In this document: positions 4,701 to 62,600 of the stretch, piece after piece
Numbering within the stretch: position 1 is the first letter of the stretch
How the letters are laid out: each line of letters starts with the position of its first letter
Origin: Prorocentrum cordatum
Lineage: Eukaryota
Length of the DNA stretch: 64,000 nucleotides
Assembly (NCBI GenBank): GCA_963575745.1
Contig: CAUYUJ010000114.1
Coordinates: 1,054,001 to 1,118,000, forward strand
Reading direction: 5' to 3'
The notes under the pieces: generated by a model
The model's input: the letters and a program-made list of their open reading frames with translations, nothing else
Databases searched by the model: none
Told to the model about the DNA's origin: nothing
Translations under genes and position numbers: made by a program

Positions 4701-4722
4701 TCCGTAGCCATTCTGGTTCAAG
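4701..4722 (+). other. Spliced-leader relic
   Basis: TCCGTAGCCATTCTGGTTCAAG, 20/22 to dinoSL, directly after a CCT microsatellite. Confidence 0.85.
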
Positions 4723-6613: not shown

Positions 6614-9600
6614 ATCGAAGACGCCTACGGCGAATCACCGCCGCCCCCTGCCTTTGTGGAAGCGCCTATGTGGCCGAACGTTGAGGCCAGACCTGCCAAG
6701 CCATCGGACCATGTGTTCCCCGAATCGGTTTGGAAAGCCTTCGGGGAACACGTGGGCGTCTTGATGGTCATCGTCGCCGTCTTGGAGGCCTCTTGGGCGA
6801 TCTTTCGGCGATCTTTGGGGGCTCTTGGGCCGTCTCGGGCCGTCGGAAGGCCGAAAGAAGGGAAATGCCCAAATCCATCAAAAACCTTGGGAAAATCAGT
6901 GATTTTGGCATCTTTTGGCCTTCCTGGAGGCCCTCTTGGGGGCCTCTTGGGCCCTTTTGGGCCAGCTTCGAGCCAACTTCGGCCATCTTGGTGGGTTCCT
7001 GGCACGTCTGACGCCGTCGGGAGCCGTTTTGGGGGCCTTTCTGGGCCAACGGGGGACCCTCTTGGGGCGCTCCAGGGCCGTCTTGGAGGCCATCTTGGGC
7101 GTCTTGGAGGCCATCTTGTGTTGGAGGCCTCTTGGGCCGTCTTGGGGCCCTCTAGGGGCCATCTTGGAGGCCACTTGGGCCATCAGGGGGCTCTCTTGGG
7201 GGCCTCTTGGGCGATCTTGGGGGCTTCTTGGGCCGTCTTGAGCCGTCGGAGAGCCGAAAAGGCGCAAATGCCAAAATCCTTCAAAAACCAAGGGAAAATC
7301 AATGATTTTGCCCTCTTCGGACTCTCCTGGAGGACCTCTTGGAGGCCTCTTGGGCCGTCTGGGAGGCCTCTGGGGGGCCTCTTGGGCCGTCTTGGGCCGT
7401 CTTGGACTCTCTTGGGCCGTTTGGAGGCCGTCTTGGACCATCTCGGGCGGACTTGGAGGCCATCTTGGGCCATCTTCGCGATTTTTTGAGGATGTCCCGA
7501 GCGAAACGGCCGTTTTTGGGCACGGTGGCGGGACGGGCCGGAGCCCACTGGGGAGTTCTTTTGGAAAAAGAACCAAAACCAAAACCTGAAACATCCAGCA
7601 CGCCGTGCACCCCTGCAAGCAGGGGGCGGCGGATCGAAGACGCCTACGGCGAATCACCGCCGCCCCCTGCCTTTGTGGAAGCGCCTATGTGGCCGAACGT
7701 TGAGGCCAGACCTGCCAAGCCATCGGACCATGTGTTCCCCGAATCGGTTTGGAAAGCCTTCGGGGAACACGTGAGCGTCTTGATGGTCATCGTCGCCGTC
7801 TTGGAGGCCTCTTGGGCGATCTTTCGGCGATCTTTGGGGGCTCTTGGGCCGTGTCGGGCCGTCGGAAGGCCGAAAAAAGGGAAATGCCCAAATCCATCAA
7901 AAACCTTGGGAAAATCAGTGATTTTGGCATCTTTTGGCCTTCCTGGAGGCCCTCTTGGGGGCCTCTTGGGCCCTTTTGGGCCAGCTTCGAGCCAACTTCG
8001 GCCATCTTGGTGGGTTCCTGGCACGTCTGACGCCGTCGGGAGCCGTTTTGGGGGCCTTTCTGGGCCAACGGGGGACCCTCTTGGGGCGCTCCAGGGCCGT
8101 CTTGGAGGCCATCTTGGGCGTCTTGGAGGCCATCTTGGGCGTGTTGGAGGCCTCTTGGGCCGTCTTGGGGCCCTCTAGGGGCCATCTTGGAGGCCACTTG
8201 GGCCATCAGGGGGCTCTCTTGGGGGCCTCTTGGGCGATCTTGGGGGCTTCTTGGGCCGTCTTGAGCCGTCGGAGAGCCGAAAAGGCGCAAATGCCAAAAT
8301 CCTTCAAAAACCAATGGAAAATCAATGATTTTGCCCTCTTCGGACTCTCCTGGAGGACCTCTTGGAGGCCTCTTGGGCCGTCTGGGAGGCCTCTGGGGGG
8401 CCTCTTGGGCCGTCTTGGGCCGTCTTGGACTCTCTTGGGCCGTTTTGGAGGCCGTCTTGGACCATCTCGGGCGGACTTGGAGGCCATCTTGGGCCATCTT
8501 CGCGATTTTTTGAGGATGTCCCGAGCGAAACGGCCGTTTTTGGGCACGGTGGCGGGACGGGCCGGAGCCCACTGGGGAGTTCTTTTGGAAAAAGAACCAA
8601 AACCAAAACCTGAAACATCCAGCACGCCGTGCACCCCTGCAAGCAGGGGGCGGCGGATCGAAGACGCCTACGGCGAATCACCGCCGCCCCCTGCCTTTGT
8701 GGAAGCGCCTATGTGGCCGAACGTTGAGGCCAGACCTGCCAAGCCATCGGACCATGTGTTCCCCGAATCGGTTTGGAAAGCCTTCGGGGAACACGTGGGC
8801 GTCTTGATGGTCATCGTCGTCGTCTTGGAGGCCTCTTGGGCGATCTTTCGGCGATCTTTGGGGGCTCTTGGGCCGTCTCGGGCCGTCGGAAGGCCGAAAG
8901 AAGGGAAATGCCCAAATCCATCAAAAACCTTGGGAAAATCAGTGATTTTGGCATCTTTTGGCCTTCCTGGAGGCCCTCTTGGGGGCCTCTTGGGCCCTTT
9001 TGGGCCAGCTTCGAGCCAACTTCGGCCATCTTGGTGGGTTCCTGGCACGTCTGACGCCGTCGGGAGCCGTTTTGGGGGCCTTTCTGGGCCAACGGGGGAC
9101 CCTCTTGGGGCGCTCCAGGGCCGTCTTGGAGGCCATCTTGGGCGTCTTGGAGGCCATCTTGGGCGTGTTGGAGGCCTCTTGGGCCGTCTTGGGGCCCTCT
9201 AGGGGCCATCTTGGAGGCCACTTGGGCCATCAGGGGGCTCTCTTGGGGGCCTCTTGGGCGATCTTGGGGGCTTCTTGGGCCGTCTTGAGCCGTCGGAGAG
9301 CCGAAAAGGCGCAAATGCCAAAATCCTTCAAAAACCAATGGAAAATCAATGATTTTGCCCTCTTCGGACTCTCCTGGAGGACCTCTTGGAGGCCTCTTGG
9401 GCCGTCTGGGAGGCCTCTGGGGGGCCTCTTGGGCCGTCTTGGGCCGTCTTGGACTCTCTTGGGCCGTTTTGGAGGCCGTCTTGGACCATCTCGGGCGGAC
9501 TTGGAGGCCATCTTGGGCCATCTTCGCGATTTTTTGAGGATGTCCCGAGCGAAACGGCCGTTTTTGCGCACGGTGGCGGGTTCTGCCGGAGCCCACTGGG

Positions 9601-9685
9601 GAGTTCTTTTGGAAAAAGAACCAAAACCAAAACCTAACAGCTCATCCAGCACGCCGTGCACCCCTGCAAGCAGGGGGCGGCGGAT
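6614..9685 (+). mobile_element. Head-to-tail trimer of a ~1.02-kb non-coding element
   Basis: Units begin ATCGAAGACGCCTACGGCG at 6614, 7633 and 8657 and end GCAGGGGGCGGCGG(AT). Lengths about 1019, 1024 and 1027; near identical. Confidence 0.9.
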
Positions 9686-10479
9686 ATAGTGGCCGTCGGC
9701 CCATCCCGCCACCGTGCCTTGGTTGTCGGCCTGAGATCCTTGGTGCCTGGGTTGCGGGGTAGAAGTCACATGCATCAAGTGGTACTTGGGGCTTCTTTTG
9801 AGTTTTTTGGGGGCTTTTGGGGCCTCTTTGAAGGGCCTTTTGGGGGGCCTCTTGGGGCCTCTTGGGGGGCCTCTTGGGGGCCTCATGGGCCCTGTTGGGC
9901 GCCTCTTGGGCCCCCCTGTGACCGCTTTGGGGCGGGCGGCTCGGATTGTTGGTTCAGGCTCCCCCTCTTGGGTTTCTCTTTGGGCCGTCTTGGGTCACTT
10001 TTGGGCCGTCTTGGGAGCCTCTTGGGCCGTCTTGGCGCCCTCTTGGGGTGTCGAGCGCCTCTTCGGAGCCTATTGGGCCGTTTTGGGGCGGTCTTGGGGG
10101 ACTGGGGCCGTCTTCAGCGCCGTGAAGGCCGAACAGTCGTGTATGATAAAGATGTACGTCTCCCCATAGGAATTCGACGATTTTGGCCCCTTGGGCCACT
10201 TTGGGGAAAGCTCTTGGAGACTTCCTGGGCCGTCTGGGAGGCTTAGGGGTTCAGGGAGGGGGAAGCATCTCACACGCCATGACCCCAAGGGGTCGGCCGA
10301 TTCTCTTTCTGATCGAGAACGACGAGCGCACGATCATGCACGAAGTGAAGGAGCTGCAGCTCAACCAGTTCGATGCGCAGCTGCACTGCGAGAGTTTGGC
10401 GGAGCTTGGCATCGTCAGTCCGCGTCTCTCCCCTGGGCTCCTGTCGCCCAAGGAGGCCAGGAAAACCACTTTCCCGGGG

Positions 10480-10820
10480 GCGCCCGTCCCCTCTCCCTCT
10501 CCAGCGCGGACAACAACATCGCGCGGTCTGCCCTTGCAAAACCCTTCCCAACCGCGGCAGCAGCAAGTGCCGACCCCACCCAGACAGGATTCGTCAAGGG
10601 GAGGAGCCTCATTGACAATCTTGTGCTTCTTGACGGCAGGCTGCTAGGACGGGCAGGTGCTCTAGGACGGATGATTGCTGGAGGCTGCCTGCTCGACGTC
10701 CGCCAGGCCTTCGCGAGCGTCTTCCACCGGTGGCCCTCCAAGGTTTTAGGCAAGATGGGGCTCCCAGAGAAGACCCGCGTGGACATTCAATGGCTGTGCC
10801 GTAGCGCGTTCAATTTTGTT
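10480..10820 (+). mobile_element. Decayed non-LTR (LINE) reverse transcriptase, N-terminal motifs
   Basis: RPLSLSSADNNI...PTQTGFVKGRSLIDNLVLLD...LLDVRQAFASVFHRW..KVLGKMGLP matches LINE RT motifs RPISL, Q-GF-GRS--DN and LD--KAFD-V. Confidence 0.85.
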
Positions 10821-11689
10821 GGCCGGCTTGAGCTCAATTTGTTTTGGTTTTGGGCGAGGAGGAGGAGGAGGGGGAGGAGGAGAAGGAGGGGGAGGGGGAG
10901 GAGGACAAGCTAGGTGCGCTCGCGTCATATCTGACGTCCTACCCCTCCCTCCCATCCTTTACCATGGCGCTGATTTTCTCTATCCACGGACGCGTGTCGT
11001 AGCGGACCTGTGGCTCCGCGCGCGCGTGCGTAGTGGGTGGTGGTGCACGTGCGTGCGTGCGTGCGTGCGTGTGTGCGTGGTTGTGGTGGTGGTGCTGGTG
11101 CTGGTGCTGGTGCTGGTGCTGGTGCTCGTGCTGGTGCTGGTGCTGGTGCTGGTGCTGGTGCTGGTTGTGATGGTGGTGGTGGTGGTGGTGGTGGTGGTGG
11201 TGGTGGTGGTGGTGGTGGTGGTGCGGCGCGGTGGTGGCGGGCGGATGGGCGCGTGAGAAAGAGGCCCGCGCTGGGGCGATAACGCCATCCTGAACGACGG
11301 AGGCCAAACACCGATCCGAAAATGAGGCCCACGCTGCAGCGGGAGCACGAGTCGGAACGATTCGGGAGCAGAAATGAGGCCGGCGCCTCAGCGAGAGCAT
11401 CATTTGGAAAAAAAACGCGGGCGAAAACCCGTTTCCCGGGAATCCTGTATGCAAAAAAACAGTACGCGGGGGGCGTTCGGCCCGAAAATGACGCCGGCGC
11501 CTCAGCGAGAGTCGTTTCCCGGGATTTCCCGGGAATCCTGTGTGTAAAAAAGCAGTACGCGGAGGGTGCGCGGCCATCACCTGGACGCCATCAGGGGAAG
11601 AGGGAGAGTATTTTTATATTGAGTAATTGTGGAGGAGGAGGAGGAGGAGGAGGAGGAGGAGGAGGAGGAGGAGGAGGAGGGGGTGGGGG

Positions 11690-16952: not shown

Positions 16953-18118
16953 TGAAAGAGCGTGTTCTACCGCTGCTGGCGGAAAACCGGGGGGGGTCAC
17001 TACCGGCTCGAACCCCTCCCCCCCCCCCCCAGCTCATCATGAAAAGGGGGGGGGGTCACTACCGGTTCGAACCCCTCCCCCCCCCCCCCAGCTCATCATG
17101 AAAAGGGGGGGGGGTCACTACCGGTTCGAACCCCCCCCCCCCCCTCGAAAACCGAGTGGGGGTGCGGACAGAGGTGGGGACGGTGTTGGTGGGACAGTGG
17201 TGAGGGGACAGCGGGACAGTGGTGGGGACAGTGGGACAGTGGGACAGTAGAGGGCCGGTAGTGGTGGGGACAGTGGTGAGGACAATGGTGGGAACAGGGG
17301 GGACAGTGGACAGTGGTGGGGACGGTGGTGGTGGGGACAGTGGTGTGGGCACAGTGGGAATGAGGTGGAAACAGTGGGACAGTGGAGGGTACAATGGTGG
17401 TGGGGACAGTGGTGAAGGCGGTGGCGAGGACGGCGGTGGGACAATGGGACAGAGGTACAGTGGGGACAGTGGTGGGGACAGTGGGGACAGTGGTGGGAAC
17501 AGTGGGACAGCTCAGTGGGACAGCGGCGGAGTCAGTGGGACAGTGGGGACAGTGGGGATAGTCGGGCAGTGGTTGGGGCCGTGGAGACAGTGGGGAGAGT
17601 GGAACCGTGGTGGGAACAGTGGTGGGGACAGTGGGGACAGTGCGACAGTGGTGGGGGCACTGGTGGGGACACAGTGGGGACAGTGGTGGTGAGGACAGTG
17701 GTGCTGGGAACAACAGTGGAGGATGTGATGCGGACGGTGGTAGGGACCGGGAGTCGTTTGCTGGCGGTGAGTGGGGGGGTAGGGAGGGGTTCGAACCGGT
17801 AGTGATCCCCCTCCGGTTTTCGAGGGGGGTGGGGGGGTTCGAACCGGTAGTGACCCCCCCCGGTTTTCCGGATCCGGAGGGGGGGGGGGGGGGAGGGGTT
17901 CGAACCGGTAGTGACCCCCCCCGGTTTTCGAGGGGGAGGGGGGGGGGGAGGGGTTAGGGGAGGGGGGGGTTTTGCCGGGGGAGGGGGGGGGGGGAGGAGG
18001 GTTCCAGCAGGCAGGAGGGGGGGGATTTTCGGGGGGGGGGGGAGGGGCGACCCCCGGGTTCCGGAGGAAAAGGTTGGCAATTTTCCAGAGTAAAGCGGCG
18101 GTGGATCGCGCTCTCTCA
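16953..18118. mobile_element. Foldback-like element with arrayed inverted subterminal repeats and central (GGGACAGTG)n minisatellite
   Basis: Degenerate 25-bp TIR (TGAAAGAGCGTGTTCTACCGCTGCT vs rc TGAGAGAGCGCGATCCACCGCCGCT). Three GGTCACTACCGG(T/C)TCGAACCC units on the left and three inverted units on the right. Sits inside a (TACA)n tract. Confidence 0.75.
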
Positions 18119-19445
18119 CATACATACATACATACATACATGCATGCATACATATGTATATATATATATATATACATATGTGTATATATATATATACATA
18201 CATACACACATCCACACCTACACACATACATACATACATACATACATACATACGTACGTACGTACGTACGTACGTACATACATACATACATACATACGTA
18301 CATACAACCATACATACACACATACATACGTGCATACATATATGTATATATGCATCATACTTCACACACGCACACATACATAAATACATACATACATGCA
18401 TGCATACATACACGCATACACGCACATACATGCATATCCGCATACATACGTGCGCACATACATAGACACACACCTACAACATACATACACACATACATGC
18501 ATACATGTACACACACCTTACACACCTGCATACCTACCTACCTACCTACGTACATATATACAGCCATGCATACATGCACACCCATACATACATACATACA
18601 CAGATACATACATCCATACACACATACATGCAGACATACATACATACAGACACATGCATTCATATGTGCATGCAATCATGCACGCATACATGCATCCACA
18701 ACATCCATACACCAGCACATCCACATATACATACATAAACACATACATACATACATACACCCATATATACACACACGCATCCATAAAGATATAAATGTGT
18801 ACATACATACCTCAATTCATCCATCAATCCATCCATCCATCAACTCATCCCTCCGTCCGTCCATGAGCACACAGTCCATACATAAAAGCATGCATGCACA
18901 CCATTCCATACATACATGCACATATACATGCATACATACATGCATGTATACATGCATGCATGCATGCATGCATACATACATACATACACATACATGCACA
19001 CATGCATGCATACGTACGTACATGCACACATACATGCAGCGACACATACATACACATGTACCCATACATTCATACATAGATGCATGCATTCATGCATGCA
19101 TACATGCATACATACATACACATATACATACATACGTACACGCATACACGCATGCATACACTTATCCATGAGTGCATGCATACATACATAAATACATACA
19201 TACATACATACATACATACATACATACATACATACATGCATGCATCAATACATACATATATGCATGCATGCATACAAGCACGCATGCGTGTATACATACA
19301 GGTGCATACATTCATAGGTGCATGCATGTATGCATGTACATACAGACATGCTTACCTCAATGCATGCATACATACATACAGACAGACAGACAGACCGACA
19401 GACACATCTATGTATATATACACCTTATATTATATATATACATAC
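18119..19445. repeat. 1.3-kb degenerate (TACA)/(TGCA) microsatellite
   Basis: Directly visible. Continues left of the foldback element at about 16815-16952. Confidence 0.95.
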
Positions 19446-20595
19446 AAGACTGCAGTGGCGCTTCGCGCCATGCACCTTGGTCCTTGAAGTTTGGTATGCA
19501 GGCGGAATGGCAGGAAGGTCAAACCGACAATTTAGCGATAACTCCTGTTTGCCTTTTCCGGCATCGCCGCTATAATGATGTTATTCGTTATCCTTCCTCC
19601 ATGCTTATTGTCTCTTATTTTCGCCATACCCTGCGCATTCTCCCCATCCTCCTCAGCTCTTTTTTGCAGAGGCTCCTCCTTGGAGAGCCTCTAGGGGCCT
19701 CACAAAAGTTGTTTCGGGCTTTCTTAATGCCTTCTGGAGGCCTCCTGGGCGTATTCTGAGGGCCTCCGGGGGCTTCCTCGGGCCACCCTGCCTCCAACCG
19801 CCGTCTCCCTGAACGACCGAATCACGATTTGGAATTCTTCGGAGGGTGTCTTTGGGCCATCTTGTGCCGCCATGGGGCTCTCTGAGCGCCATCTTGGACC
19901 CGTGTTGTGCCGTTTTGGGGTTCTCTTGGACTGCCTGGAAGCCCTTTCGGATGGTTGTGTGGCGATTTGGGAGCCTCCCAGGCGGCTTCGGACGCCCAGA
20001 AGACCGCCGTCTTGGAGCGTCGGGAAGCCGAAAAGAGGAGAACCCCAAAATTCACCAAAAACCAATGATTTTTGCCTCGGGGGGCCTTCTTGGGAGTGCT
20101 CTTGGAGGCCTCTTTGGGGCCGTCCTGGAGGCCTCTGAGGCCATCTTGAGGTCACGTCGGTCGCTCTTGGAGCGCTCTTGTGCTGTCTTGGGGGTCTTTG
20201 GGGCGTCTCCGATGACCGCCCTGATCGCCCTAAGTGTGCTGGGAAGGCTTGGCAAAACGCCTTGCGAGGCCCGGTGGCCGCTTCGAGGCCCGTTCGGAGG
20301 GCCCCAAAGCCCCAGGTCCCAGGAGTCCGGTTTTGGGGGGGGGGGGGGGGTGACGGGTTTTCCCCCCGCCCGGGTTTTCAAAAATATAGGAAGAGGAATA
20401 TATATATATATATATATATATATATCGGAATTGGCCAGGGGGGGGGCCGGACCCCTGCCCTGTGGTGGTATGGAGGTCCTGGGCGACCTGTGGGGGCCCC
20501 GAGGGCTCCAGGCGGCTCCAAAGGCCGCCAGGACCGGCTCAAGACTGCCCAAATTGCTCCGAGAGCGTCCCAAGACGCCCCAATATGGCGTCAAC

Positions 20596-20617
20596 ACCGT
20601 AGCCATTTTGGCTCAAG
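20596..20617 (+). other. Perfect dinoflagellate spliced leader embedded in genomic DNA
   Basis: ACCGTAGCCATTTTGGCTCAAG, 22/22 to DCCGTAGCCATTTTGGCTCAAG, immediately followed by ATG. Confidence 0.97.
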
Positions 20618-23600
20618 ATGTTTCGTTTCGATGGCTTGCTGCAACGACGAACATGCGGCTGTCCTCTGTTCCGGTTGGCATGCACTTCCGCCTTGGCCGC
20701 ATCGGTGATGGTCGCTCTTCTCAGGAGGCGAAATGCGCGAGCGCCCGCTGACTCCGACAGAGAGCTCGGAGGTTTCGCGGCCGCACGTGCTTGCGACAAC
20801 AAGCGTTGCCTTGGATCAGTCGGGTGGAGCACTGGATGTGTTACAATGACGGAGTGTTCGGGCTGCCCCCAGTGCAGCTACACGTGGCAAAGAATGCTGG
20901 CCGTTGCACCGGCAGCGGCGAGTGCTGAAGCATTGGCAGGGCGGCCACGGGCCGCGGCGGAGAGTACTACCATGCTGGCCTACACCGGGCACGCCATCGG
21001 TGGACCCGTTGCAAGCGCCAGATCGAATACTAGCTCCTGGTTCGCGCCTGCACGCCCATCTGCGGACGAAAAGCCTGGTGAGAACGGGGCCGTGCCTTCG
21101 GCGAGGGAGGCCACCACAACCACCGAGACCACGACGTCTTCGTCCAACACTCGGCAGCCGTACTCGCTGCTTCCTCCAGATCAGAGCTGTGCATCGTACC
21201 AGCTCGCTGACGTGCTTTCCGAGGATGAGTGTTTCGGAGATGCTGTGCAGCATAATCGAGTTGGCTTGGGCGACAAGCAGACTATCGGAAAGCCCACTTG
21301 GGATGGCATGAGTTTTTACGGCTGCGTGTATAACATTGAAGCGGACTTGGTCATGTTCAACGATCAGTCACCGAACCCGAGCTACACTTCAACACAACAA
21401 CAAAACATCTGCCTTGGCGTGGCAACCACAACCACCTCTTCAACCTTCACTATCACAAGTTCGAGCACTTTGTCGAGCAGTGAGACCAGAAGCAGCACCA
21501 GCCCGACCAGCAGCACCAGCGAAACCACCACGACCCGGACCAGCAGAACCCTGACCAGCATCAGCGAGATCAGCGTGACCAGCATCAGCGAGACCAGCAG
21601 CACCAGCGCGACCAGCATCAGCGAGACCAGCAGCACCGCAACCAGCAGGACCCTGACCAGCACCGCAACAAGCAGGACCCTGACCGGCACCAGCACGACC
21701 AGCATCAGCGAGACCAGCAGCACCGTAACCAGCACCGGAACGACCATCACTGGAACGACCAGCACAAGCGAGTCCAGCATCACCGCCACTACTGTTTCCA
21801 ACACGCATCAGCCCTATTCCTTGCTTCCTCCAGATCAGAGCTGTGCATCGTACCAGCTCGCTGACGTGCTTTCCGAGGATGAGTGTTTCGGAGATGCTGT
21901 GCAGCATAATCGAGTTGGCTTGGGCGACAAGCAGACTATCGGAAAGCCCACTTGGGATGGCATGAGTTTTTACGGCTGCGTGTATAACATTGAAGCGGAC
22001 TTGGTCATGTTCAACGATCAGTCACCGAACCCGAGCTACACTTCAACACAACAACAAAACATCTGCCTTGGCGTGGCAACCACAACCACCTCTTCAACCT
22101 TCACTATCACAAGTTCGAGCACTTTGTCGAGCAGTGAGACCAGAAGCAGCACCAGCCCGACCAGCAGCACCAGCGAAACCACCACGACCCGGACCAGCAG
22201 AACCCTGACCAGCATCAGCGAGATCAGCGTGACCAGCATCAGCGAGACCAGCAGCACCAGCGCGACCAGCATCAGCGAGACCAGCAGCACCGCAACCAGC
22301 AGGACCCTGACCGGCACCAGCGCGACCAGCATCAGCGAGACCAGCAGCACCGCAACCAGCAGGACTTTGACTGGCACCAGCACGACCAGCATCAGCGAGA
22401 CCAGCAGCACCGCAACCAGCAGGACCCTGACCGGCACCAGCGCGACCAGCATCAGCGAGACCAGCAGCACCAGCGCGACCAGCATCAGCGAGACCAGCAG
22501 CACCAGCGCGACCAGCATCAGCGAGACCAGCAGCACCAGCACGACCAGCATCAGCGACACCAGCAGCACCGCAACCAGCAGGACCTTGACTGGCACCAGC
22601 ACGACCAGCATCAGCGAGACCAGCAGCACCGCAACCAGCAGGACCCTGACCAGCACCAGCGCGACCAGCATCAGCGAGACCAGCAGCACCAGCGCGACCA
22701 GCATCAGCGAGACCAGCAGCACCAGCGCGACCAGCATCAGCGAGACCAGCAGCACCAGCGCGACCAGCATCAGCGACACCAGCAGCACCGCAACCAGCAG
22801 GACCCTGACTGGCACCAGCACGACCAGCATCAGCCACACCAGCAGCACCGCAACCAGCAGGACCTTGACTGGCACCAGCACGACCAGCATCAGCGAGACC
22901 AGCAGCACAGTAAACCATGATCTGACGTGGCTCGGCATGGACCAGAGTACATCTAGCGCGGGAGTGACGAGCATTGAAGTCATGATTCTGTTCGGTCTTG
23001 TCCTCGCGGGCGGCATCGCTATGTGGGTCTTTGCGGTCACAATCATCACGAGGTACCAGCGTCGAAAGCGCGCGGCAACAACCGCGCCCACGGACCTTCT
23101 TAGCCATTCGGGTCAGCCTGGAGCCCTGCGGATCAGTGCGCAAGCTTGCGACGCTGACCCTGGCACTGCGGGCGGGCCGGTCTCCCCGCCCCTGCCGCCG
23201 CGGGTCGGCACGGCGCCAGCGGGCACCCGTGGCCAGCCGTCTGCCAGCCTCGAGGGGGCCATCCGCGAGGCTTTCGGGTCCATGGGCGAGTTCAAGGCCC
23301 GCTTCGAGGCCCAGTGCGCCCGAGGTGGCTCCGCCTGGGCCTGGCTCGTGGTGACCGCTGACAGCAGGCTGGCTATCACGTCCACGCTGAGCCAGGAAAA
23401 CCCCTTCGTGGACGGCGCCGAGGAGGATATCCCTGGGGCCCCAATCCTGGCCTGCAGCGTCTGGGATCACGCCAGCGGCCTGGAGCAGTTCCAGTGCCAG
23501 CACCAAGCCTACATGCAAGCTTGGTGGAGAGTGGTGAATTGGGAGACCGTCAGTACATTGTACGACGAGGCCCTCAATAGCAAGGCCCCAACTACCGAGG

Positions 23601-23698
23601 GCAACCTTGTCGGTGATACAACTGTGGAATGTACTCATATGCCGCCGATTGGCAGTGCGCCCTTGCATCGGCCCGTGGCGATACCTGATATTTGGTGA
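20618..23698 (+). CDS. 1026-aa membrane protein: two Cys-containing modules, Ser/Thr mucin-like stalk, TM helix, degenerate Fe/Mn-SOD C-terminal domain
   Basis: Intronless ORF starting directly after a perfect SL. About 90-aa module QPYSLLPPDQSC...NICLGVA twice (654-nt offset). TSISETSS repeats. TM IEVMILFGLVLAGGIAMWVFAVTIIT followed by RYQRRKR. Tail AIREAFGSMGEFKARF...GSAWAWLVV...NP...PILACSVWDHA...WWRVVNWETV matches the Sod_Fe_C pattern. Exact start and stop uncertain. Confidence 0.8.
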   Translation: MFRFDGLLQRRTCGCPLFRLACTSALAASVMVALLRRRNARAPADSDRELGGFAAARACDNKRCLGSVGWSTGCVTMTECSGCPQCSYTWQRMLAVAPAAASAEALAGRPRAAAESTTMLAYTGHAIGGPVASARSNTSSWFAPARPSADEKPGENGAVPSAREATTTTETTTSSSNTRQPYSLLPPDQSCASYQLADVLSEDECFGDAVQHNRVGLGDKQTIGKPTWDGMSFYGCVYNIEADLVMFNDQSPNPSYTSTQQQNICLGVATTTTSSTFTITSSSTLSSSETRSSTSPTSSTSETTTTRTSRTLTSISEISVTSISETSSTSATSISETSSTATSRTLTSTATSRTLTGTSTTSISETSSTVTSTGTTITGTTSTSESSITATTVSNTHQPYSLLPPDQSCASYQLADVLSEDECFGDAVQHNRVGLGDKQTIGKPTWDGMSFYGCVYNIEADLVMFNDQSPNPSYTSTQQQNICLGVATTTTSSTFTITSSSTLSSSETRSSTSPTSSTSETTTTRTSRTLTSISEISVTSISETSSTSATSISETSSTATSRTLTGTSATSISETSSTATSRTLTGTSTTSISETSSTATSRTLTGTSATSISETSSTSATSISETSSTSATSISETSSTSTTSISDTSSTATSRTLTGTSTTSISETSSTATSRTLTSTSATSISETSSTSATSISETSSTSATSISETSSTSATSISDTSSTATSRTLTGTSTTSISHTSSTATSRTLTGTSTTSISETSSTVNHDLTWLGMDQSTSSAGVTSIEVMILFGLVLAGGIAMWVFAVTIITRYQRRKRAATTAPTDLLSHSGQPGALRISAQACDADPGTAGGPVSPPLPPRVGTAPAGTRGQPSASLEGAIREAFGSMGEFKARFEAQCARGGSAWAWLVVTADSRLAITSTLSQENPFVDGAEEDIPGAPILACSVWDHASGLEQFQCQHQAYMQAWWRVVNWETVSTLYDEALNSKAPTTEGNLVGDTTVECTHMPPIGSAPLHRPVAIPDIW

Positions 23699-25252
23699 AT
23701 TCGGATTGGCTTCGGTGAGCGATGGCCCCGATGCCCCCCCCCCGACTCAGGTACCACACACCCGGTTTCCGTCTCTCTTCTTCCTCCTCTTCTTCCTCCT
23801 CCTCCTCCTCCTCCTCCTCCTCCTCATCTCCCTCCTCTTCATCGTCCCGTTCCTCCCCTTCAAACGGCTGCGCCCTCTGCGCGGTCGTGTCTTTCGTGAG
23901 TAGACCCAACCCAAGTTGGTGCTCCCATATTTCGAAGGTATATTGCACTGCCTTAACTCCTTCCTGTGTAACATGTCATCCGTGTGCGGACACAGCTGCT
24001 TGCCGGCATCAGCGATGTGCGTCGCAGGCCGCAGTGGTCCCAAGCAGCCGTTTGGGGCCAACCCCTCTGCGCCAGCACGGGCGGGGACATCTTCGCGGCG
24101 TTCTGCTTGCTGCTGGCGTGGCATCTGTATGAGCCAGGGGCACGACGTCACCCTGTCTACGCGCTGGCCAGCAGCCAGCCCGAAGGGAGGCTTGCTGTCG
24201 AATGTGTTGGCGCTCCGCCCACCTCATACAGCCAGCGCGTGGCCTGCGCCAGCGCACACACGCCGAGCCGACCGACAGCATCCTCGCCACAACAACAGGC
24301 AGCCACGCGGCTTGCAGCGACCAGTGGCGGCGTGCGCGGCGTTCGCTCTTGGCGCCCACGGCTGTCGTTCGCCTCGGAGGCAAAGGCGAGGGCAGGCTGC
24401 CGCGTGTCTACGCGTGTCCTATGCCACGGCGGGCCCGTACCAGGCCTTGGCCGTCCAGGCGATGCCGCGTGTCCAGTGTCGCGGCGTGTTCCTCCTCTGT
24501 TTCACCGGTGGCGAGCCCCGCACCGCGTCGCCGCGTGTCGTGGTCTTTGATTGCATGGCTCCAGTATCACTCACCCATCCTCATCCCCGTCAGGCCACGG
24601 TATCTCAGCCCTCTGATTAACGCATCAACGTACGGACAAAAAAAAGAGGCCCCAATATGGCGTCAACAAGGGCCAAGAGGCCGCCAAGACGCCCCAAGAG
24701 GGCTTCAAGAGGCCTCCCACAAGCACCCCAGGAAGCAGAAATCTCCGAAATCCTTTTTTAAAGGAAACGTGCAGTTTCAGCATCGTCGCTTCTCCGCGTG
24801 TTGACAGCGTCTCAGACGGTCCAGGAGGCGGCACAGGAGGCTCCGCAACCGCTTCCGTAGTCATATTCCCAAAGCGTTCTGGCCTCCAGGCGTTTCGACG
24901 ATTCTGCTCTTACCTCTCCTCCTCCAGGTTAAGAGGCACCTCAAGGCGACGGAGATGACTCGACGGTGTTCCCCCAGCTGTCTTGTTCTGGCCACTCCCA
25001 GTGATCAGAAACTCCGCCCTTCGGGCAGGTAGAAGGAGGAGGCGCAGCGGCGGAGGAGGCGGGGACGATGCGGAGGTGGAGGAGGAGGAGGAGGAGGAGG
25101 AGGAGTGGTAGGAGGAAGATGAGAGGATGGAGTAGGAGGGAGGACGAGCGAGGAGGGAGGATGGTGAGAATGGGGAAGAGGAGAAACGGGAGAAGAGAGA
25201 GGGGAACGAAGAGGGAGGATGGACGGGGGGGAGTAGGCAGAGGACAAGCAAG

Positions 25253-57668: not shown

Positions 57669-58991
57669 CGCGAGACGTATTTGATTTTGATTCGGATGGT
57701 TTCGGTGTCGGCCACGTGGGGGGCGCTCGAGAGAGGGCATCGTTTTTGAGGGTCGAAGGAGTTGCCATCTCTGCCTCGGCGACGGTCGGCGCAAGTCGAG
57801 CGGGGGCGCCTCTGCCGACGGAAGGCCAGCGGCAGTAAAAGATCGCACCCCCAAAGTGGTTATAATGTTGGGGGGCTGCAGGGCTCCCGGAGCCACCCAC
57901 GTGGCGGGGGTGAGCGCAAGCGGGGGCCAGCCAATCCTTTGTGGCCGGCCCAGGCTTGGGAGAGGCTCGGGTCAAGCAGTGGCGAAGCGTCCTGGCGTGC
58001 CTATGGGACTGCCTTGCTTGAACACATCGGGCTTATGCCCTAAGGCTCTAAGAACAGATTGTTGGTTCTTAGAGCGCTTTCGGGTGCCAAGAACATGTCG
58101 TGGTAGGCCTAGACGAATGCTGGGGCGGTGGGTCCCTGCTCAATTCAGGAGGAAAAGAAACACACAGACACAATGAATCGTCGATTCCCCAGAAAATACG
58201 GGAAACTATGGGAAGTGGGGGGGAAGACAGAAACCCACAGAATACAGGAAGAGATGGGGAATAGTTTTATCTGTGTGTATATCTATTTGTGTGTCCCAGG
58301 GCCCCTTCCTCAATCGGGGCCGACGCCCCGCGCCCTCCCTCCGCCCAGCTGGCCCTGGAAGCCCCTCCGCGGCTGCCCCCGGGGACCGCCCCGTGGCCCC
58401 CGGCGGGCCCGGGGCAGCGCTGGCCCGGCCTCTCCGCCACGCCGCCACGCTGCGGGGCGGCGCCGAAGGCTGCGCCGCCTCGTCGGCGGGGCGGCGCCCC
58501 GCCCTCGGCAGAGGGCGAGGGGGCGAAGCAGGAGGCCGAGGAGAAGATCCTGCTCCTCCTCCTGCTCCTCCTCCTCCTCATCATCATCCTTCTCCTCCTC
58601 TTGTTTTCATTACTATTACGATTCTCCTCCTCCTCCTCCTCCTCCTCCTCCTCCTCCTCCTCCTCCTCCTCCTCCTCCTCCTCTTGTTAGTATTACTGTT
58701 CTTCTCCATGTTGGCCAGCTGCTGAAGCCTGAGGCCCTCGCACCCGAACTCGAAGCAGAAAGAACGCCATTAACATAAACTTGTGGCACCTCGCGCCAAA
58801 AGTTTCTGCTTATGCCGTTTTCTTTTTCCACACACGGCCCCCACAGCCCTGAGACCCAGTTGTTGCATCTTTGTGTTCACTCCGGGCGCTTCCGCCCCGT
58901 TTCGGGGACCCCGCACCAGGAGTGCCGCGAGGGGACGAGGTCGAGGGTCCCAGCCTGCCGCCCGCGCAGCGAGAAGCTCGGGGCGAGGATT

Positions 58992-59029
58992 TCCGCAGCC
59001 CTTTTGGCTCAAGCCGTTTGGCTCTAAAG
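58992..59029 (+). other. Tandem dinoflagellate spliced-leader relics upstream of CPSII
   Basis: TCCGCAGCCCTTTTGGCTCAAG (20/22 to dinoSL) at 58992-59013, then CCGTTTGGCTCTAAAG resembling the truncated relic CCATTTTGGCTCAAG, ending about 40 nt before the ATG. Confidence 0.85.
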
Positions 59030-59070
59030 ACCCTCTGCTGCGCAGACCCCACCCGGCCGAGCTCGGCGCC

Positions 59071-59406
59071 ATGGCCGCGACGAGCAGTGCCGCCGCCGCG
59101 GCGCGGCCGGCCGACCCCGCCCGACTCGCCGGGTGGCTGGCGTCCCGGCGGGCGGCCACGCTCGAGCTGGCCGACGGCAGCGTCTTCGAGGGCTTCTCCT
59201 TCGGGTATGGGGGATCCACGACTGGCGAGGTCGTCTTCAACACGGGCATGGTAGGGTACCCCGAGTCGCTCACGGACCCGTCGTACGCCGGGCAGATCCT
59301 CGTGCTCACGTTCCCGCTGGTGGGGAACTACGGCGTGCCCGACGGCGAGGAGCGCGACGCGCTCGGCCTCCTTCGGCACTTCGAGAGCGAGAGGATACAC
59401 ATCAAG
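59071..59406 (+). CDS. CPSII: Carbamoyl-phosphate synthetase II (GATase-CPS fusion), exon 1
   Basis: ATG at 59071 (context GCCATGG). Translates MAATSS...[17 protein letters not shown]...[39 protein letters not shown]...FESERIHIK, the CPS small-chain N-terminal domain. 336 nt, phase 0, ends AAG|GC. Confidence 0.93.
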
Positions 59407-59627
59407 GCTTATGATGCTCCAGCCTACTTTAGCCTTGATCACCAGAAAGAGTTCCGAGCGCCAGAGAAATACCTTCAAACTTGGGGGTTTTCACGTGTCG
59501 GGCCCTGGGAGACGCTGTTTCGACACTCTTTCGACACTCTTTCGACACTCTTTCGACACTTTTCCGGGTGCTCGAGATTATTTCTGGGATGTGGTCTTTG
59601 AGTACGATGGGAGCATCATGAATCAAG
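59407..59627 (+). other. 221-nt GC-AG intron of CPSII
   Basis: Removing GCTTATG...AATCAAG joins CAC ATC AAG to GCC CTC GTG and restores a continuous CPS frame (IHIK-ALVV). GC donor and AG|G acceptor are typical of dinoflagellates. Confidence 0.88.
59409..59621 (+). mobile_element. 213-bp non-autonomous TIR element (family A, Introner-like) forming the CPSII intron
   Basis: 8-bp direct repeat ATCAAGGC at 59401-59408 and 59622-59629. Ends TTATGATGCTCC and GGAGCATCATGA form a 12-bp inverted repeat with 1 mismatch. Homologous copies elsewhere in the window. Confidence 0.88.
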
Positions 59628-62600
59628 GCCCTCGTGGTCTCGGACTACTCCTTCGTGGCGTCCCACTACACGGCGAGGAGGACGCTGGGGCAGTGGCTCG
59701 AGGCGCACAAGATCCCGGGCATCTACGGTGTGGACACCCGCGCGCTGACCAAGCTCATCCGCATGCACGGCGCGCTGCTGGGCAAGGTCGTCGTGGAGGG
59801 CAGCGCGCCCTCGGCGTCCATGGAGTTCTCGGACCCCAACGAGACGAACCTGGCGGCTACCGTCTCGCGCTCCCAGAAGCAGGTGTTCGTGCCCCCTCCG
59901 CGGGCGGCGGACGGCGCCGCGGCGCCGCTCGCCGAGGAGGCCGAGAAGCAGGTCACCATCCTCGCCGTGGACTGCGGCATGAAGAACAACATCATCCGAT
60001 ACTTCGTGGAATGCCTCCGCGTCAGGCTGGTCGTGGTGCCCTGGGACTACGATTTTACAAAGGACGAGTTTGATGGCCTATTCTTGAGCAACGGACCTGG
60101 GAACCCCTTGATGTGTGAGGTCACGATCGGGCATGTCCGCGAGGTCATGCTGCGCCGGCCAACCTTGCCAATATTCGGCATCTGTTTAGGCAATCAGATC
60201 CTGGGGCTGGCATCTGGAGCCCAGACTTACAAGATGAAGTTCGGCAATCGCGGCATGAACCAGCCCTGCGTGGACATGCGCACCACGCGCTGCTACATCA
60301 CCCCGCAGAACCACGGCTTTGCCATCGATAACGCGTCGCTGGCAGACGGCTGGATGCCGCTCATGATCAACGCCAACGACGGCAGCAACGAAGGAATCAT
60401 CCACAGCGGCCGCCCATGGTTCTCCGTGCAGTTCCACCCCGAGGCGTGCGGCGGCCCCACCGACACGGCGTTCCTCTTCCATCAGTTCCTCAACAACATA
60501 TCCAGCCCGACCCAGCTGGTGACCACGATCCCGTACTCGCCCCCGAAAGTCTATCGCAAGGTGCTCGTCCTCGGCTCGGGCGGGCTCACCATCGGCCAGG
60601 CGGGCGAGTTCGACTACTCTGGCAGCCAGGCCATCAAGGCCCTCCGCGAGTCGGGCGTGTTCTCCATCGTGGTCAACCCCAACATCGCGACCGTGCAGAC
60701 CTCGTGGGGATACGCCGACCGGGTGTACTTCCTGCCCGTCACCGTGGAGTTCGTCACGCAGGTGATCCAGCGCGAGCGCCCCGACGGCATCCTGTGCTCC
60801 TTCGGCGGCCAGACGGCGCTCAACTGCGGCATCAGGCTCGAGGAGGAGGGCGTGCTGTCCAAGTACGACGTCAAGGTGCTGGGAACACCGATCAAGGCAG
60901 TCATCACGACTGAAGACCGCGAGCTGTTCGCCACGGCGGTGGACCACTGCGGATACAAGGTTGCCGAGAGCGCCTGCTGCACGACCGCTGAGGAAGCTGT
61001 GGCCGCCGCGGCAAAGATCGGCTATCCGGTGCTGGTCCGGGCTGCCTTCGCCCTCGGCGGCCTCGGCAGCGGCTTCGCGACGGGAGAGGGCGAGCTGAGG
61101 CGCCTGGTGCAGGTGGCGCTGGTGAACAGCCCGCAGGTCATCGTCGACAAGAGCTTGAAGGGCTGGAAGGAGCTCGAGTACGAGGTCGTGCGCGACGCAA
61201 ATGGCAACTGCATCACGGTGTGCAACATGGAGAACTTCGATCCCATGGGCATCCACACGGGCGACTCCATCGTCATTGCCCCGTCGCAGACGCTCACGAA
61301 CGCCGAGTACTTCAGACTGCGCGAGTGCGCTCTGAAGGTGGTGTGCCATTTGGGTGTGGTGGGTGAGTGCAACATCCAGTACGCGGTAGACCCGCACAGC
61401 CAGGAGTTCCGCATCATCGAGGTCAACGCACGCTTGTCGCGGAGCAGCGCGCTGGCGTCGAAGGCAACCGGGTACCCGCTCGCGTATGTCGCCGCGAAGT
61501 TGGCCCTCGGTGGCGACCTGGTGAGCTTGCGCAACAGCGTCACCAAGTGCACGACCGCTTGCTTCGAGCCGAGCCTCGACTACATTGTCGCGAAGGTTCC
61601 CCGCTGGGACCTGCGCAAGTTCTCGACGGTGGACCAGGAGGTCGGCAGCTGCATGAAGAGCGTAGGAGAGGTGATGTCCATCGGGCGCACCTTCGAGGAG
61701 ACCATCCAGAAGGCTCTCCGCATGGTCGACGAGGCCTGCAGGGGCTTCGACTCCGAGCGCTTCGACCTGGAGCTGGCCCACCGCGGCGAGGACGACACCG
61801 TGCACCTCGTCCGGGCAGAGCTGGTGAGGCCGACGCCGACGCGGGTGTGGGCCATCGCGAAGGCCTTCGAGCTCGGCATGGACGTGGAGGAGGTCCACCG
61901 CCTGACGCGCATCGACCGCTGGTTCCTGTCGAAGCTCATGAACGTCCACGCCGTCAAGCACGCGCTGCAGACCCTCGACCTCCCTGGCCTCGCGGCCAGC
62001 CCGCAGCTGCTCCGCGAGGCCAAGCGGTGCGGCTTCGCGGACCGCCAGATTGCGCCCCTGCTGCACTTCCAGGACGGCGTGGGCGCGCACGGCAAGTGGG
62101 AGTACCACGGCGGCCCGGTGCACGACTACCACGTCCGCGCCCTGCGGAAGAGTGCGGGCATCGTTCCCGTCGTGAAGCAGATCGACACACTCGCGGCCGA
62201 GTTTCCAGCGCACACCAACTACCTCTACCTCACGTACAGCGGCATCGAGAACGACGTGAACCTCGCCAGCCTCGGCTCTCAGGAGGAGGACACAAGCCAG
62301 CCGGAGGCTCCTATCATGGTCATCGGCTGCGGCCCGTACCGCATTGGCAGCAGTGTCGAGTTTGATTGGTGCTCCGTGTCCTGCGTCAAGACGCTGCGAG
62401 GGCTCGGCAAGCGCGCAATCATCATCAATTGCAACCCAGAGACAGTGTCGACAGACTACGACGAATCGGACCGTCTTTACTTCGACGAGCTCAGCCACGA
62501 AACCGTGCTCGACGTCGCCGAGATGGAGCAGTGCGCCGGCATGATCGTGTCTGTCGGCGGGCAGATACCCAACAACTTAGCCATGCGGCTGCATCAGGTC

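What the first reader, a model, noticed from the sequence alone, without database searches (positions are those of the whole stretch)
20577..24668. Complete, young dinoSL retrocopy with intact TSD and poly(A)
Seen: a 19-20 bp identical TSD brackets a perfect 22-nt SL, an intronless ORF, about 0.9 kb of 3' sequence and an A8 tail. The host CCAAGA-rich repeat reads through once the insert is removed. Known: long TSD plus poly(A) is the signature of LINE target-primed reverse transcription, and SL relics mark mRNA recycling in dinoflagellates. Inference: direct junction-level evidence that LINE machinery performs this recycling. A decayed LINE RT lies 8-10 kb upstream.
Basis: partly seen in the sequence, partly recalled or inferred. 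Interest (0 to 1): 0.75.

Follow-up and report, generated by a model that had tools for sequence, protein, structure and literature searches.

The report
Dinoflagellate mRNA copied back into DNA
A complete dinoflagellate messenger RNA, still carrying its spliced leader and a short poly(A) tail, sits in the genome between two copies of a 20-base target sequence, the scar expected of LINE-type insertion; it is a clean example of a known process whose enzyme has not been identified.

Summary
A 20-bp exact direct repeat (20577-20596 and 24649-24668) brackets a perfect 22-nt dinoflagellate spliced leader, an open 1026-codon frame, a 939-nt 3' UTR and an A8 run. The 20-mer and all its 10-mers occur only at these two places in the window. 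With the insert removed, the flanks align continuously to an inverted copy of the same minisatellite at 6.8-10.1 kb. Contigs of four public runs, one on record as poly(A) RNA, lie collinear on the insert with no intron-like joint.

It is therefore a processed retrocopy of a mature mRNA. LINE-type target-primed reverse transcription in trans is the best mechanism, but it is inferred from the scar alone. The nick site is not L1-like, three bases (GAG) separate tail and repeat, and the nearby RT remnant is weak and dead.

No parent locus could be sought because no genome is held. One contig carries leader end plus a 14-nt relic with three T, against four T here, so another copy probably exists.

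This scan already noted similar leader-to-poly(A) retrocopies and leader-headed LINEs elsewhere in this genome. I file it as a new member of a known kind, of moderate interest.

The parts
20440..20576 (+). Left flank: degenerate CCAAGA-type minisatellite (host repeat)
   Evidence: Read. Aligns to the inverted minisatellite at 6.8-10.1 kb. Unit about 11 nt and multiples.
20577..20596 (.). Left copy of the 20-bp target-site duplication
   Evidence: exact, only two copies in the window, next best match 4 mismatches.
20574..20592 (.). Small inverted repeat at the target (6-bp stem, 7-nt loop); the left edge of the duplication lies in its stem
   Evidence: -6.4 kcal/mol with DNA parameters. 4.2% of window positions have such a hairpin starting within 5 nt, so this is a mild coincidence.
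20596..20617 (+). Complete 22-nt dinoflagellate spliced leader encoded in DNA (first base shared with the duplication)
   Evidence: 21-nt core at 0 mismatches, directly followed by ATG rather than an SL-RNA intron.
20618..23698 (+). Open frame of 1026 codons plus stop: cargo gene
   Evidence: Contigs of four runs lie collinear on it with no intron-like joint.
21168..22312 (+). Internal tandem duplication of 654 nt (491 nt exact: 21168-21658 = 21822-22312)
   Evidence: A 142-nt contig over the junction (21710-21851) is present with 0 differences in X5, X6 and X15; in X1 a 156-nt contig (21696-21851) covers it, also with 0 differences.
22225..22908 (+). Ser/Thr-rich coding repeats (33-, 60- and 219-nt periods)
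   Evidence: translation.
22970..23038 (+). Hydrophobic stretch followed by basic residues: likely membrane span
   Evidence: Read by eye from the translation. No predictor was run; this is inference.
23240..23554 (+). Sod_Fe_C domain (C-terminal half of an Fe/Mn superoxide dismutase) with no N-terminal half
   Evidence: PF02777, E 2.5e-22, residues 875-979; 42% identity to a Bacillus SOD, with S-V-W-D-H where that enzyme has D-V-W-E-H.
23699..24637 (+). 3' UTR (939 nt) including a (CCT)n run at 23773-23840
   Evidence: One 1702-nt contig (X5) runs from the coding part to 24622, with 26 letters in place of 68 over the (CCT)n run.
24638..24645 (+). A8: remnant of the poly(A) tail
   Evidence: The contigs' last letters lie at 24622-24634; contigs cannot show an RNA end.
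24646..24648 (+). GAG between tail and duplication: extra bases, or part of a 25-nt duplication with one mismatch
24649..24668 (.). Right copy of the 20-bp target-site duplication
24669..24760 (+). Right flank: continuation of the CCAAGA-type minisatellite
10473..10793 (+). Truncated reverse-transcriptase remnant, about 9.8-10.1 kb upstream; not part of the insert
   Evidence: RVT_1 below cut-off; translation shows RT-like motifs, then simple repeats; 25 of 30 nearest named Atlas clusters carry RVT_1.

Best explanation
A mature mRNA was reverse-transcribed directly at a nicked chromosomal site in a minisatellite. The enzyme was most likely a non-LTR (LINE-type) retrotransposon endonuclease/reverse transcriptase acting in trans.

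The mRNA had been trans-spliced to the 22-nt leader directly in front of its start codon and polyadenylated after a 939-nt 3' UTR.

Proposed steps:
1. The bottom strand was nicked at the left edge of what became the duplication.
2. cDNA synthesis started at the RNA's 3' tail and ran to the very 5' end of the leader.
3. The top strand was cut 20 bp downstream.
4. Fill-in duplicated the 20 bp.

Shown: the anatomy (leader, collinear intronless body, A-run, 20-bp duplication, host repeat continuous across the site) and the existence of matching RNA-library contigs.

Inferred: the order of nicks, the enzyme class and the age.
For: - Perfect leader in DNA, abutting the left repeat copy at offset 0 and followed by ATG.
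- A8 lies 3 nt before the right copy.
- The 20-bp repeat is exact and unique: 2 of 2 matches at up to 3 mismatches, 0 expected. All its 10- to 12-mers occur only twice.
- It is the only pair longer than 14 nt among the 5 repeat-plus-A-run pairs in the window.
- The empty site built in a script aligns across the junction in 38 of 87 HSPs to the inverted host minisatellite. The best is 70.7% over 157 nt, E 1.7e-19.
- Contigs of 4 of 4 laid runs, one on record as poly(A) RNA, lie collinear from 20607 to 24634. The only joints are inside the coding repeats and the (CCT)n run. The main contigs of X1, X5 and X6 show 0 differences; X15 shows 15 substitutions and 1 insertion.
- 17 of 24 listed runs, from 9 studies, hold half or more of the sampled words.
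- Poly(A) tail plus target-site duplications are the stated hallmarks of L1-type retroposition. LTR-mediated retrocopies lack them and are flanked by LTR sequence (passages in PMC5131818).
- L1 duplications peak at 14-16 bp (passage in PMC2912911), so 20 bp is in range.
- No LTR or other element sequence lies between the duplication and the mRNA ends.
Against: - This is one locus, with no empty allele seen and no parent locus found.
- The inferred nick site is GC-rich (C|GCCCC, or CC|AAGAC in the 25-nt reading), unlike L1's TTTT/AA.
- The tail is only 8 A and is separated from the duplication by GAG.
- No intact LINE lies in the window. The RT remnant scores below Pfam's cut-off, with no endonuclease domain, no PDB relative and no longer relative.
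- SymbioLINE-Dnmt elements of Symbiodinium have duplications but lack poly(A) tails (PMC5890265, figure legend). Not every dinoflagellate LINE would therefore prime on a poly(A) tail.
- Exact 18-30-nt direct repeats are common in this kind of minisatellite: 139 pairs in the window, of which I read the first 80.
- A census of 136 distinct leader occurrences in AT-rich environmental contigs showed no excess of flanking repeats over shifted controls and 0 with an A-run. Those are other organisms and the test has low power.
Confidence: 0.72

Rival explanations
1. It is a retrocopy, but not made by a LINE. Either a cDNA made elsewhere (by an LTR-element or other reverse transcriptase) was captured at a staggered double-strand break, or a Penelope-like element's machinery inserted it.
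For: - The nick site is not L1-like, and extra bases (GAG) lie at the 3' junction.
- Song et al. 2017 state that the mediator is unknown and that a Ty1/copia element had been proposed (PMC5585692, passages).
- No intact LINE lies in the window.
Against: - LTR-mediated retrocopies are chimeras flanked by LTR sequence, often partial, and lack a tail and duplications (PMC5131818). Here the full mRNA ends abut the duplication directly.
- A 20-bp duplication exceeds the few-bp duplications of integrases (recalled).
- Break capture is not expected to give a clean 20-bp duplication with a full-length cDNA (inference).
Confidence: 0.17
2. The repeat is a chance recurrence within the periodic host minisatellite. 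The gene is a resident single-exon gene whose upstream sequence merely resembles the leader.
For: Exact 18-24-nt repeats are frequent in the related minisatellite at 6.8-10.1 kb.
Against: - The 20-mer has no third copy at up to 3 mismatches, and none of its 10-mers recurs.
- Its copies end and begin at the mRNA's two ends.
- The leader match is 22 of 22. The leader is added to mRNAs by trans-splicing (PMC6050394 abstract), so its presence in DNA in front of a start codon marks reverse transcription.
Confidence: 0.03
3. Assembly artefact: cDNA or transcript reads were built into the genome assembly.
For: The insert is identical to contigs of transcriptome-sized runs. No run that covers the flanks was available.
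Against: - Contamination would not create a 20-bp duplication of the flanking sequence.
- It would not sit inside a repeat that is continuous across the site.
Confidence: 0.03

Closest known systems
DinoSL-tagged retrogenes ('recycled' processed cDNAs) of dinoflagellates. Slamovits and Keeling 2008 as cited in PMC6050394; Song et al. 2017, PMC5585692; Open Biol 2025, PMC12014239.
   Same: A DNA-encoded spliced leader in front of an intronless gene copy. One contig also shows the leader-plus-truncated-relic pattern of repeated recycling.
   Different: The passages I read identify retrogenes by the leader relic only and say the mediating enzyme is unknown or 'presumably' a LINE. The words 'target site' and 'flanking' do not occur in PMC5585692 or PMC12014239. 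Here both junctions are intact: full 22-nt leader, A-run and 20-bp duplication.
L1-mediated processed pseudogenes and retrocopies of mammals (hallmarks as listed in PMC5131818 and PMC7692494; structures in PMC2912911)
   Same: Intronless, full-length, with a 3' A-tail and a flanking duplication in the 10-20-bp range.
   Different: The nick site is not TTTT/AA. The tail is only 8 A, with 3 extra bases. The 5' end is a trans-spliced leader with no extra G. The responsible element is unidentified.
SymbioLINE-Dnmt elements of Symbiodinium (PMC5890265)
   Same: Dinoflagellate LINEs with endonuclease and RT domains that leave target-site duplications.
   Different: They are described as lacking poly(A) tails and having conserved UTRs, so they are not obvious partners for a polyadenylated mRNA. 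None is present in this window.
Earlier notes of this scan on the same genome: a 14-3-3 leader-to-poly(A) retrocopy with a 16-bp duplication (e1-7695158), and LINEs that begin with the leader inside their duplication (e1-7626471, e1-7630467)
   Same: The same anatomy on other DNA of this genome.
   Different: Those are AI notes that I could not re-examine. This locus has a longer cargo (4.05 kb), a 20-bp duplication and no cap-derived G.

Membership tests
Leader-tagged processed retrocopy (dinoflagellate retrogene) | Spliced leader encoded in genomic DNA directly upstream of the gene body | tested here: met
   22 of 22 at 20596-20617, followed by ATG.
Leader-tagged processed retrocopy (dinoflagellate retrogene) | Body collinear with the mature transcript (no introns) | tested here: met
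   Contigs of 4 of 4 runs, including one poly(A) RNA library, are collinear. Joints occur only inside repeats.
Leader-tagged processed retrocopy (dinoflagellate retrogene) | A separate parent gene elsewhere in the genome | tested here: inconclusive
   - No genome is held.
- The metagenome scan and the protein search found only ordinary SODs.
- One X1 contig carries a 14-nt relic with 3 T where this locus has 4 T, which hints at another copy.
LINE-type target-primed reverse transcription product | Target-site duplication of about 7-20 bp flanking the whole insert | tested here: met
   20 bp exact and unique.
LINE-type target-primed reverse transcription product | 3' poly(A) tail adjoining the duplication | tested here: met
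   A8 at 24638-24645. It is short and 3 nt from the duplication.
LINE-type target-primed reverse transcription product | Endonuclease nick-site consensus shared with a resident LINE (for L1: TTTT/AA) | tested here: not met
   The site is GC-rich, so the L1 consensus is not met. The consensus of this genome's own LINEs could not be tested.
LINE-type target-primed reverse transcription product | An active LINE with endonuclease and RT in the same genome | not testable with these tools
   Only a truncated, sub-threshold RVT_1 remnant lies in the window. Earlier scan notes report intact LINEs elsewhere, unchecked by me.
SL RNA gene | Leader exon followed by its own intron (GT donor) rather than by coding sequence | tested here: not met
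   The leader is followed by ATGTTTCG and a 1026-codon frame. No Rfam family reaches threshold in the window.
Fe/Mn superoxide dismutase (cargo protein) | Both the N-terminal (PF00081) and C-terminal (PF02777) domains, with the metal-binding Asp and His of the C-terminal motif | tested here: not met
   Only PF02777 is found. Ser stands where the Bacillus enzyme has Asp in D-V-W-E-H. That this Asp binds the metal is recalled.

The most novel reading that the evidence does not exclude
The locus records the second turn of a recycling loop.
- The source gene is itself a retrogene with a worn relic (14 nt, three T).
- Its mRNA was trans-spliced at the relic's own last AG and so gained a fresh leader right at the ATG.
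- That mRNA was inserted by the same endonuclease/RT that moves the leader-headed LINEs of this genome. The nick falls in the stem of a small hairpin within a minisatellite.

If so, leader trans-splicing and one LINE family form a self-reinforcing gene-duplication engine with a structure-based target. Each copy arrives with built-in trans-splice acceptors.
Probability: 0.25. Interest if true: 0.7.

Novelty: new member of a known kind. Interest (0 to 1): 0.5.

Why it matters
About a fifth to a quarter of dinoflagellate genes are reported to be leader-tagged retrogenes (PMC6050394 passages). Even so, the papers I could search say the mediating enzyme is unknown or only presumed to be a LINE (PMC5585692, PMC12014239).

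A locus with both junctions pristine gives the exact scar: a 20-bp duplication, a short A-tail, full-length cDNA up to the first base of the leader, and no cap G. This turns the question into a countable one. The same measurements on all leader-headed inserts and all LINE insertions of one genome would show whether they share an endonuclease.

By itself this is one clean instance of an expected outcome.

Tried and rejected
- Own genome: not held. No parent search, copy count or target census was possible.
- Metagenome scan with the C-terminal 265 aa: 108 pattern matches and 1 relative, an ordinary SOD at 37% identity on a 77-kb contig.
- Protein database with the same part: 37 hits, all ordinary Fe/Mn SOD-like proteins at 48% identity or less. 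No near-identical protein.
- RT remnant: no PDB relative at E up to 10. No longer relative among 8000 candidates. The Atlas gives only RVT_1-type leads.
- Flank cover: the flanks 20000-20606 and 24698-25200 had no cover in the four laid runs. All are contigs and none is known to be DNA, so this says nothing about an empty allele or about transcription limits. Contig ends at 24622-24634 cannot show an RNA end.
- Census in IMG/VR contigs (119 stretches; 136 distinct leader occurrences, mostly 16-25% GC):
  - Repeats of 12 nt or more flanking the leader: 22 of 136, against 9-29 at seven shifted control anchors.
  - Repeats with an A-run: 0 of 136, against 0-4.
  - No signal. These are other, AT-rich organisms and only exact matches were sought, so power is low.
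- The 20-mer in IMG/VR: 0 matches.
- Scan notes by sequence for the 3' part and for the left flank: nothing. Notes near this window: none.
- Rfam over the window: 0 matches.
- Pfam on 215 further stop-to-stop frames of the window: besides the RT remnant and the CPSase gene, only three sub-threshold low-complexity hits.
- Literature for a duplication-flanked leader retrocopy: searches found none. Subscription journals and supplements were not seen.
Full report
**What is there**

- The 20-mer GCCCCAATATGGCGTCAACA stands at 20577-20596 and again at 24649-24668.
- Directly after the first copy comes the complete dinoflagellate spliced leader, 20596-20617. The 21-nt core has 0 mismatches.
- An ATG follows at 20618 and opens a frame of 1026 codons that ends at 23698.
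- After that come a 939-nt 3' UTR, A8 at 24638-24645, the three bases GAG and the second copy of the 20-mer.
- The A at 20596 can be counted with the duplication or as the leader's first base, hence '19-20 bp'.
- BLAST also reports a 25-nt match with one mismatch (20572-20596 vs 24644-24668). In that reading the tail is A6 and the target supplied AAGA.

**More than chance**

- At up to 3 mismatches on both strands the 20-mer has only these two matches, with none expected in 100 shuffles.
- The nearest other 20-mer differs at 4 places. Every 10-, 11- and 12-mer of it occurs exactly twice.
- This matters because the flanks belong to a degenerate minisatellite of about 11 nt and multiples, in which exact 18-24-nt repeats are common. 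There are 139 pairs of 18-30 nt in the window. I read the first 80; nearly all lie in the array at 6.8-10.1 kb or in the coding repeats.
- I scanned the window for exact repeats of 12-40 nt, 150-12000 nt apart, with an A-run of 6 or more ending within 8 nt before the second copy. Five pairs passed. This one is 20 nt; the other four are 12-14 nt.

**The host repeat is continuous across the site**

I built the empty site inside a script from the left flank with one repeat copy plus the right flank. It was neither printed nor typed. It gave 87 HSPs against the rest of the window. Of these, 38 span the duplication with at least 5 nt on either side. All 20 of those that were printed hit the inverted minisatellite at 6.8-10.1 kb:
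- 70.7% over 157 nt, E 1.7e-19.
- 65.9% over 232 nt.

Periodic repeats align in many registers, so this is supportive rather than strong.

**The insert is a transcript**

Seventeen of 24 listed public runs, from 9 studies, hold at least half of the sampled words. I laid four of them, all as contigs. One is on record as poly(A) RNA; the kind of the other three is not on record.
- In all four the contigs lie collinear on 20607-24634.
- The only joints fall inside the Ser/Thr-coding repeats and the (CCT)n run, where de Bruijn contigs collapse.
- The main contigs of X1, X5 and X6 show 0 differences.
- The RNA library X15 shows 15 substitutions and one inserted base. It therefore comes from a related strain or copy.
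- Of the 12 substitutions inside the frame, 3 are synonymous. That shows no clear purifying selection, but n is small.
- The junction of the internal 654-nt tandem duplication is covered by contigs in all four runs, so the duplication is not an assembly error. It is 491 nt exact, 21168-21658 = 21822-22312.
- A diverged contig in X1 (25 differences, 121 letters replaced) shows that related copies exist.

**A hint of another copy**

One X1 contig ends, 5' of position 20607, in the nine letters CTCAAGCCA.
- It therefore reads: leader end, then CCA, then TTTGGCTCAAG, then ATG.
- That is the classic leader-plus-truncated-relic pattern, but with three T where this locus has four.
- If this locus were the template, re-spliced at the AG inside its own leader, four T would be expected.
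- My preferred reading, at about two to one, is that another copy with an older relic is the source. The mRNA copied here would have been trans-spliced at the AG just before the ATG.
- A one-T difference between strains is the alternative.

**Mechanism**

A leader is added to mRNA only by trans-splicing (PMC6050394 abstract). Leader plus intronless body plus A-run between duplicated target therefore means that a mature mRNA was reverse-transcribed into this site.

Poly(A) tail and target-site duplications are the listed hallmarks of L1-type retroposition. LTR-mediated retrocopies lack both, are often partial and are flanked by LTR sequence (PMC5131818, passages). L1 duplications peak at 14-16 bp (PMC2912911, passage). 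Here the mRNA ends abut the duplication with no foreign sequence between them. Target-primed reverse transcription by a non-LTR element in trans is therefore the best explanation.

It remains an inference, for these reasons:
- The inferred bottom-strand nick lies in GC-rich sequence, not TTTT/AA.
- GAG separates tail and duplication. It could be untemplated bases, a mixed tail, or a mutated 25-nt duplication.
- The tail is short.
- The described SymbioLINE-Dnmt family lacks poly(A) tails (PMC5890265, figure legend).

The left edge of the duplication lies in the stem of a 6-bp hairpin at 20574-20592, with -6.4 kcal/mol. Such hairpins start within 5 nt of 4.2% of window positions, so I record this only as a lead.

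**The nearby RT**

- The frame 10170-10910 gives RVT_1 at E 9.3e-5 and 22.7 bits, against a cut-off of 29.6. It covers profile positions 6-105 of 205.
- Its translation shows RT-like blocks and then runs into simple repeats.
- No endonuclease domain was found in 25 neighbouring frames at E up to 1.
- There was no PDB match and no longer relative.
- 25 of 30 nearest named Atlas clusters carry RVT_1.

It is a dead fragment. Its type is not established, and proximity has no bearing on a trans-acting process.

**The cargo**

- An N-terminal part with no family match.
- A four-cysteine module present twice through the internal duplication.
- About 500 residues of Ser/Thr-rich repeats.
- A hydrophobic stretch followed by basic residues (by eye).
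- A tail with only the C-terminal domain of Fe/Mn superoxide dismutase: PF02777, E 2.5e-22, 42% identity to a Bacillus SOD.

The N-terminal SOD domain is absent. Ser replaces the Asp of the D-V-W-E-H block seen in the Bacillus row. That this Asp is a metal ligand is recalled. The protein is probably not an active dismutase.

**What is in print**

I saw the following:
- Passages of PMC12014239: 'likely mediated by retrotransposons'; the terms 'target site' and 'flanking' are absent.
- Passages of PMC6050394 and PMC5890265.

Six searches combining dinoflagellate or spliced-leader terms with target-site-duplication, TSD, TPRT or processed-pseudogene terms returned no paper describing a duplication-flanked leader retrocopy. 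Supplements and subscription journals were not seen, and Slamovits and Keeling 2008 is known to me only as cited.

**Generalisation attempt**

The leader core occurs exactly in 119 stretches of IMG/VR 'viral' contigs.
- There are 136 distinct occurrences, mostly at 16-25% GC.
- They are followed by diverse sequences, so they are not SL RNA genes.
- Flanking repeats were no more frequent than at shifted control anchors, and none had an A-run.

These are other organisms and the method needs exact matches, so this neither supports nor weakens the reading for this genome.

**Earlier notes of this scan**

Notes on other pieces of the same genome report a 14-3-3 leader-to-poly(A) retrocopy with a 16-bp duplication, several LINEs whose first bases are the leader inside their duplication, and a retrogene at a hairpin used by LINEs. 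They agree with this reading but are unchecked AI notes. I could not re-examine their sequences.

**Verdict**

- It is a complete, apparently recent processed retrocopy: a new member of a known kind.
- The LINE attribution is the best-supported mechanism (about 0.7) but is not demonstrated.
- Interest is moderate. The locus is a clean exemplar that defines what to count in a genome-wide test.

Noticed in passing
window 58993-59029 and 58774-63911: A carbamoyl-phosphate synthase gene (small chain, GATase and large chain domains) lies behind a leader relic with 2 mismatches. A second, truncated relic follows directly, so the gene was recycled twice. The CPSase small-chain profile is split between two frames (58774-59598 and 59622-63911), which means an intron or a frameshift. 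The 3' end runs off the window, so no duplication could be sought.
   Followed up: partly
window 4702-4722: A third leader relic (2 mismatches) abuts a (CCT)n-type microsatellite on its 5' side. No family match in the frame behind it and no A-run of 6 or more before 7873. It resembles the 'microsatellite-leader-cargo' pattern of scan note e1-7625312.
   Followed up: partly
window 6800-10120: The host-type minisatellite (unit about 11 nt, GGGCCATCTTG and multiples) lies in inverted orientation and is organised in a higher-order tandem of 1023-1024 bp (matches at 7121, 8144 and 9168).
   Followed up: partly
window 20574-20592: A 6-bp inverted repeat with a 7-nt loop lies at the insertion target. 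The duplication's left edge falls in its stem. The mismatch in the right-hand copy weakens the stem (-6.4 vs -3.1 kcal/mol). Background is 4.2% of positions.
   Followed up: yes
window 20618-23698: The cargo protein joins a mucin-like Ser/Thr-rich part and a likely membrane span to a lone SOD C-terminal domain with Ser in place of the Asp of the D-V-W-E-H block. In this search the nearest proteins were ordinary SODs at 48% identity or less.
   Followed up: partly
window 21168-22312: A 654-nt in-frame tandem duplication with 491 nt of exact identity lies inside the coding region, and its junction is covered by contigs in all four runs. It is a very recent internal duplication.
   Followed up: yes
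L002-L119 (IMG/VR contigs): Contigs filed as giant-virus bins, mostly 16-25% GC, carry the exact 21-nt dinoflagellate leader core 136 distinct times. Diverse sequences follow it, and recurrent hexamers precede it (ATTTTA 20, TTTTTA 18, AAACCA 14, CTAGTA 10). They look like DNA of an AT-rich leader-using eukaryote rather than viruses.
   Followed up: partly
L047 and L084: In two GC-rich environmental contigs the leader is preceded by a run of 5-6 G. This fits copied cap or untemplated bases. The window's locus has none.
   Followed up: no
window 16982-17144, 17774-17953, 18118-19276: Tandem units of 59-61 nt with long G and C runs around a TTCGAACC core appear in both orientations. A 1.16-kb (ACAT)n microsatellite accounts for the GC dip at 18-20 kb.
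   Followed up: no
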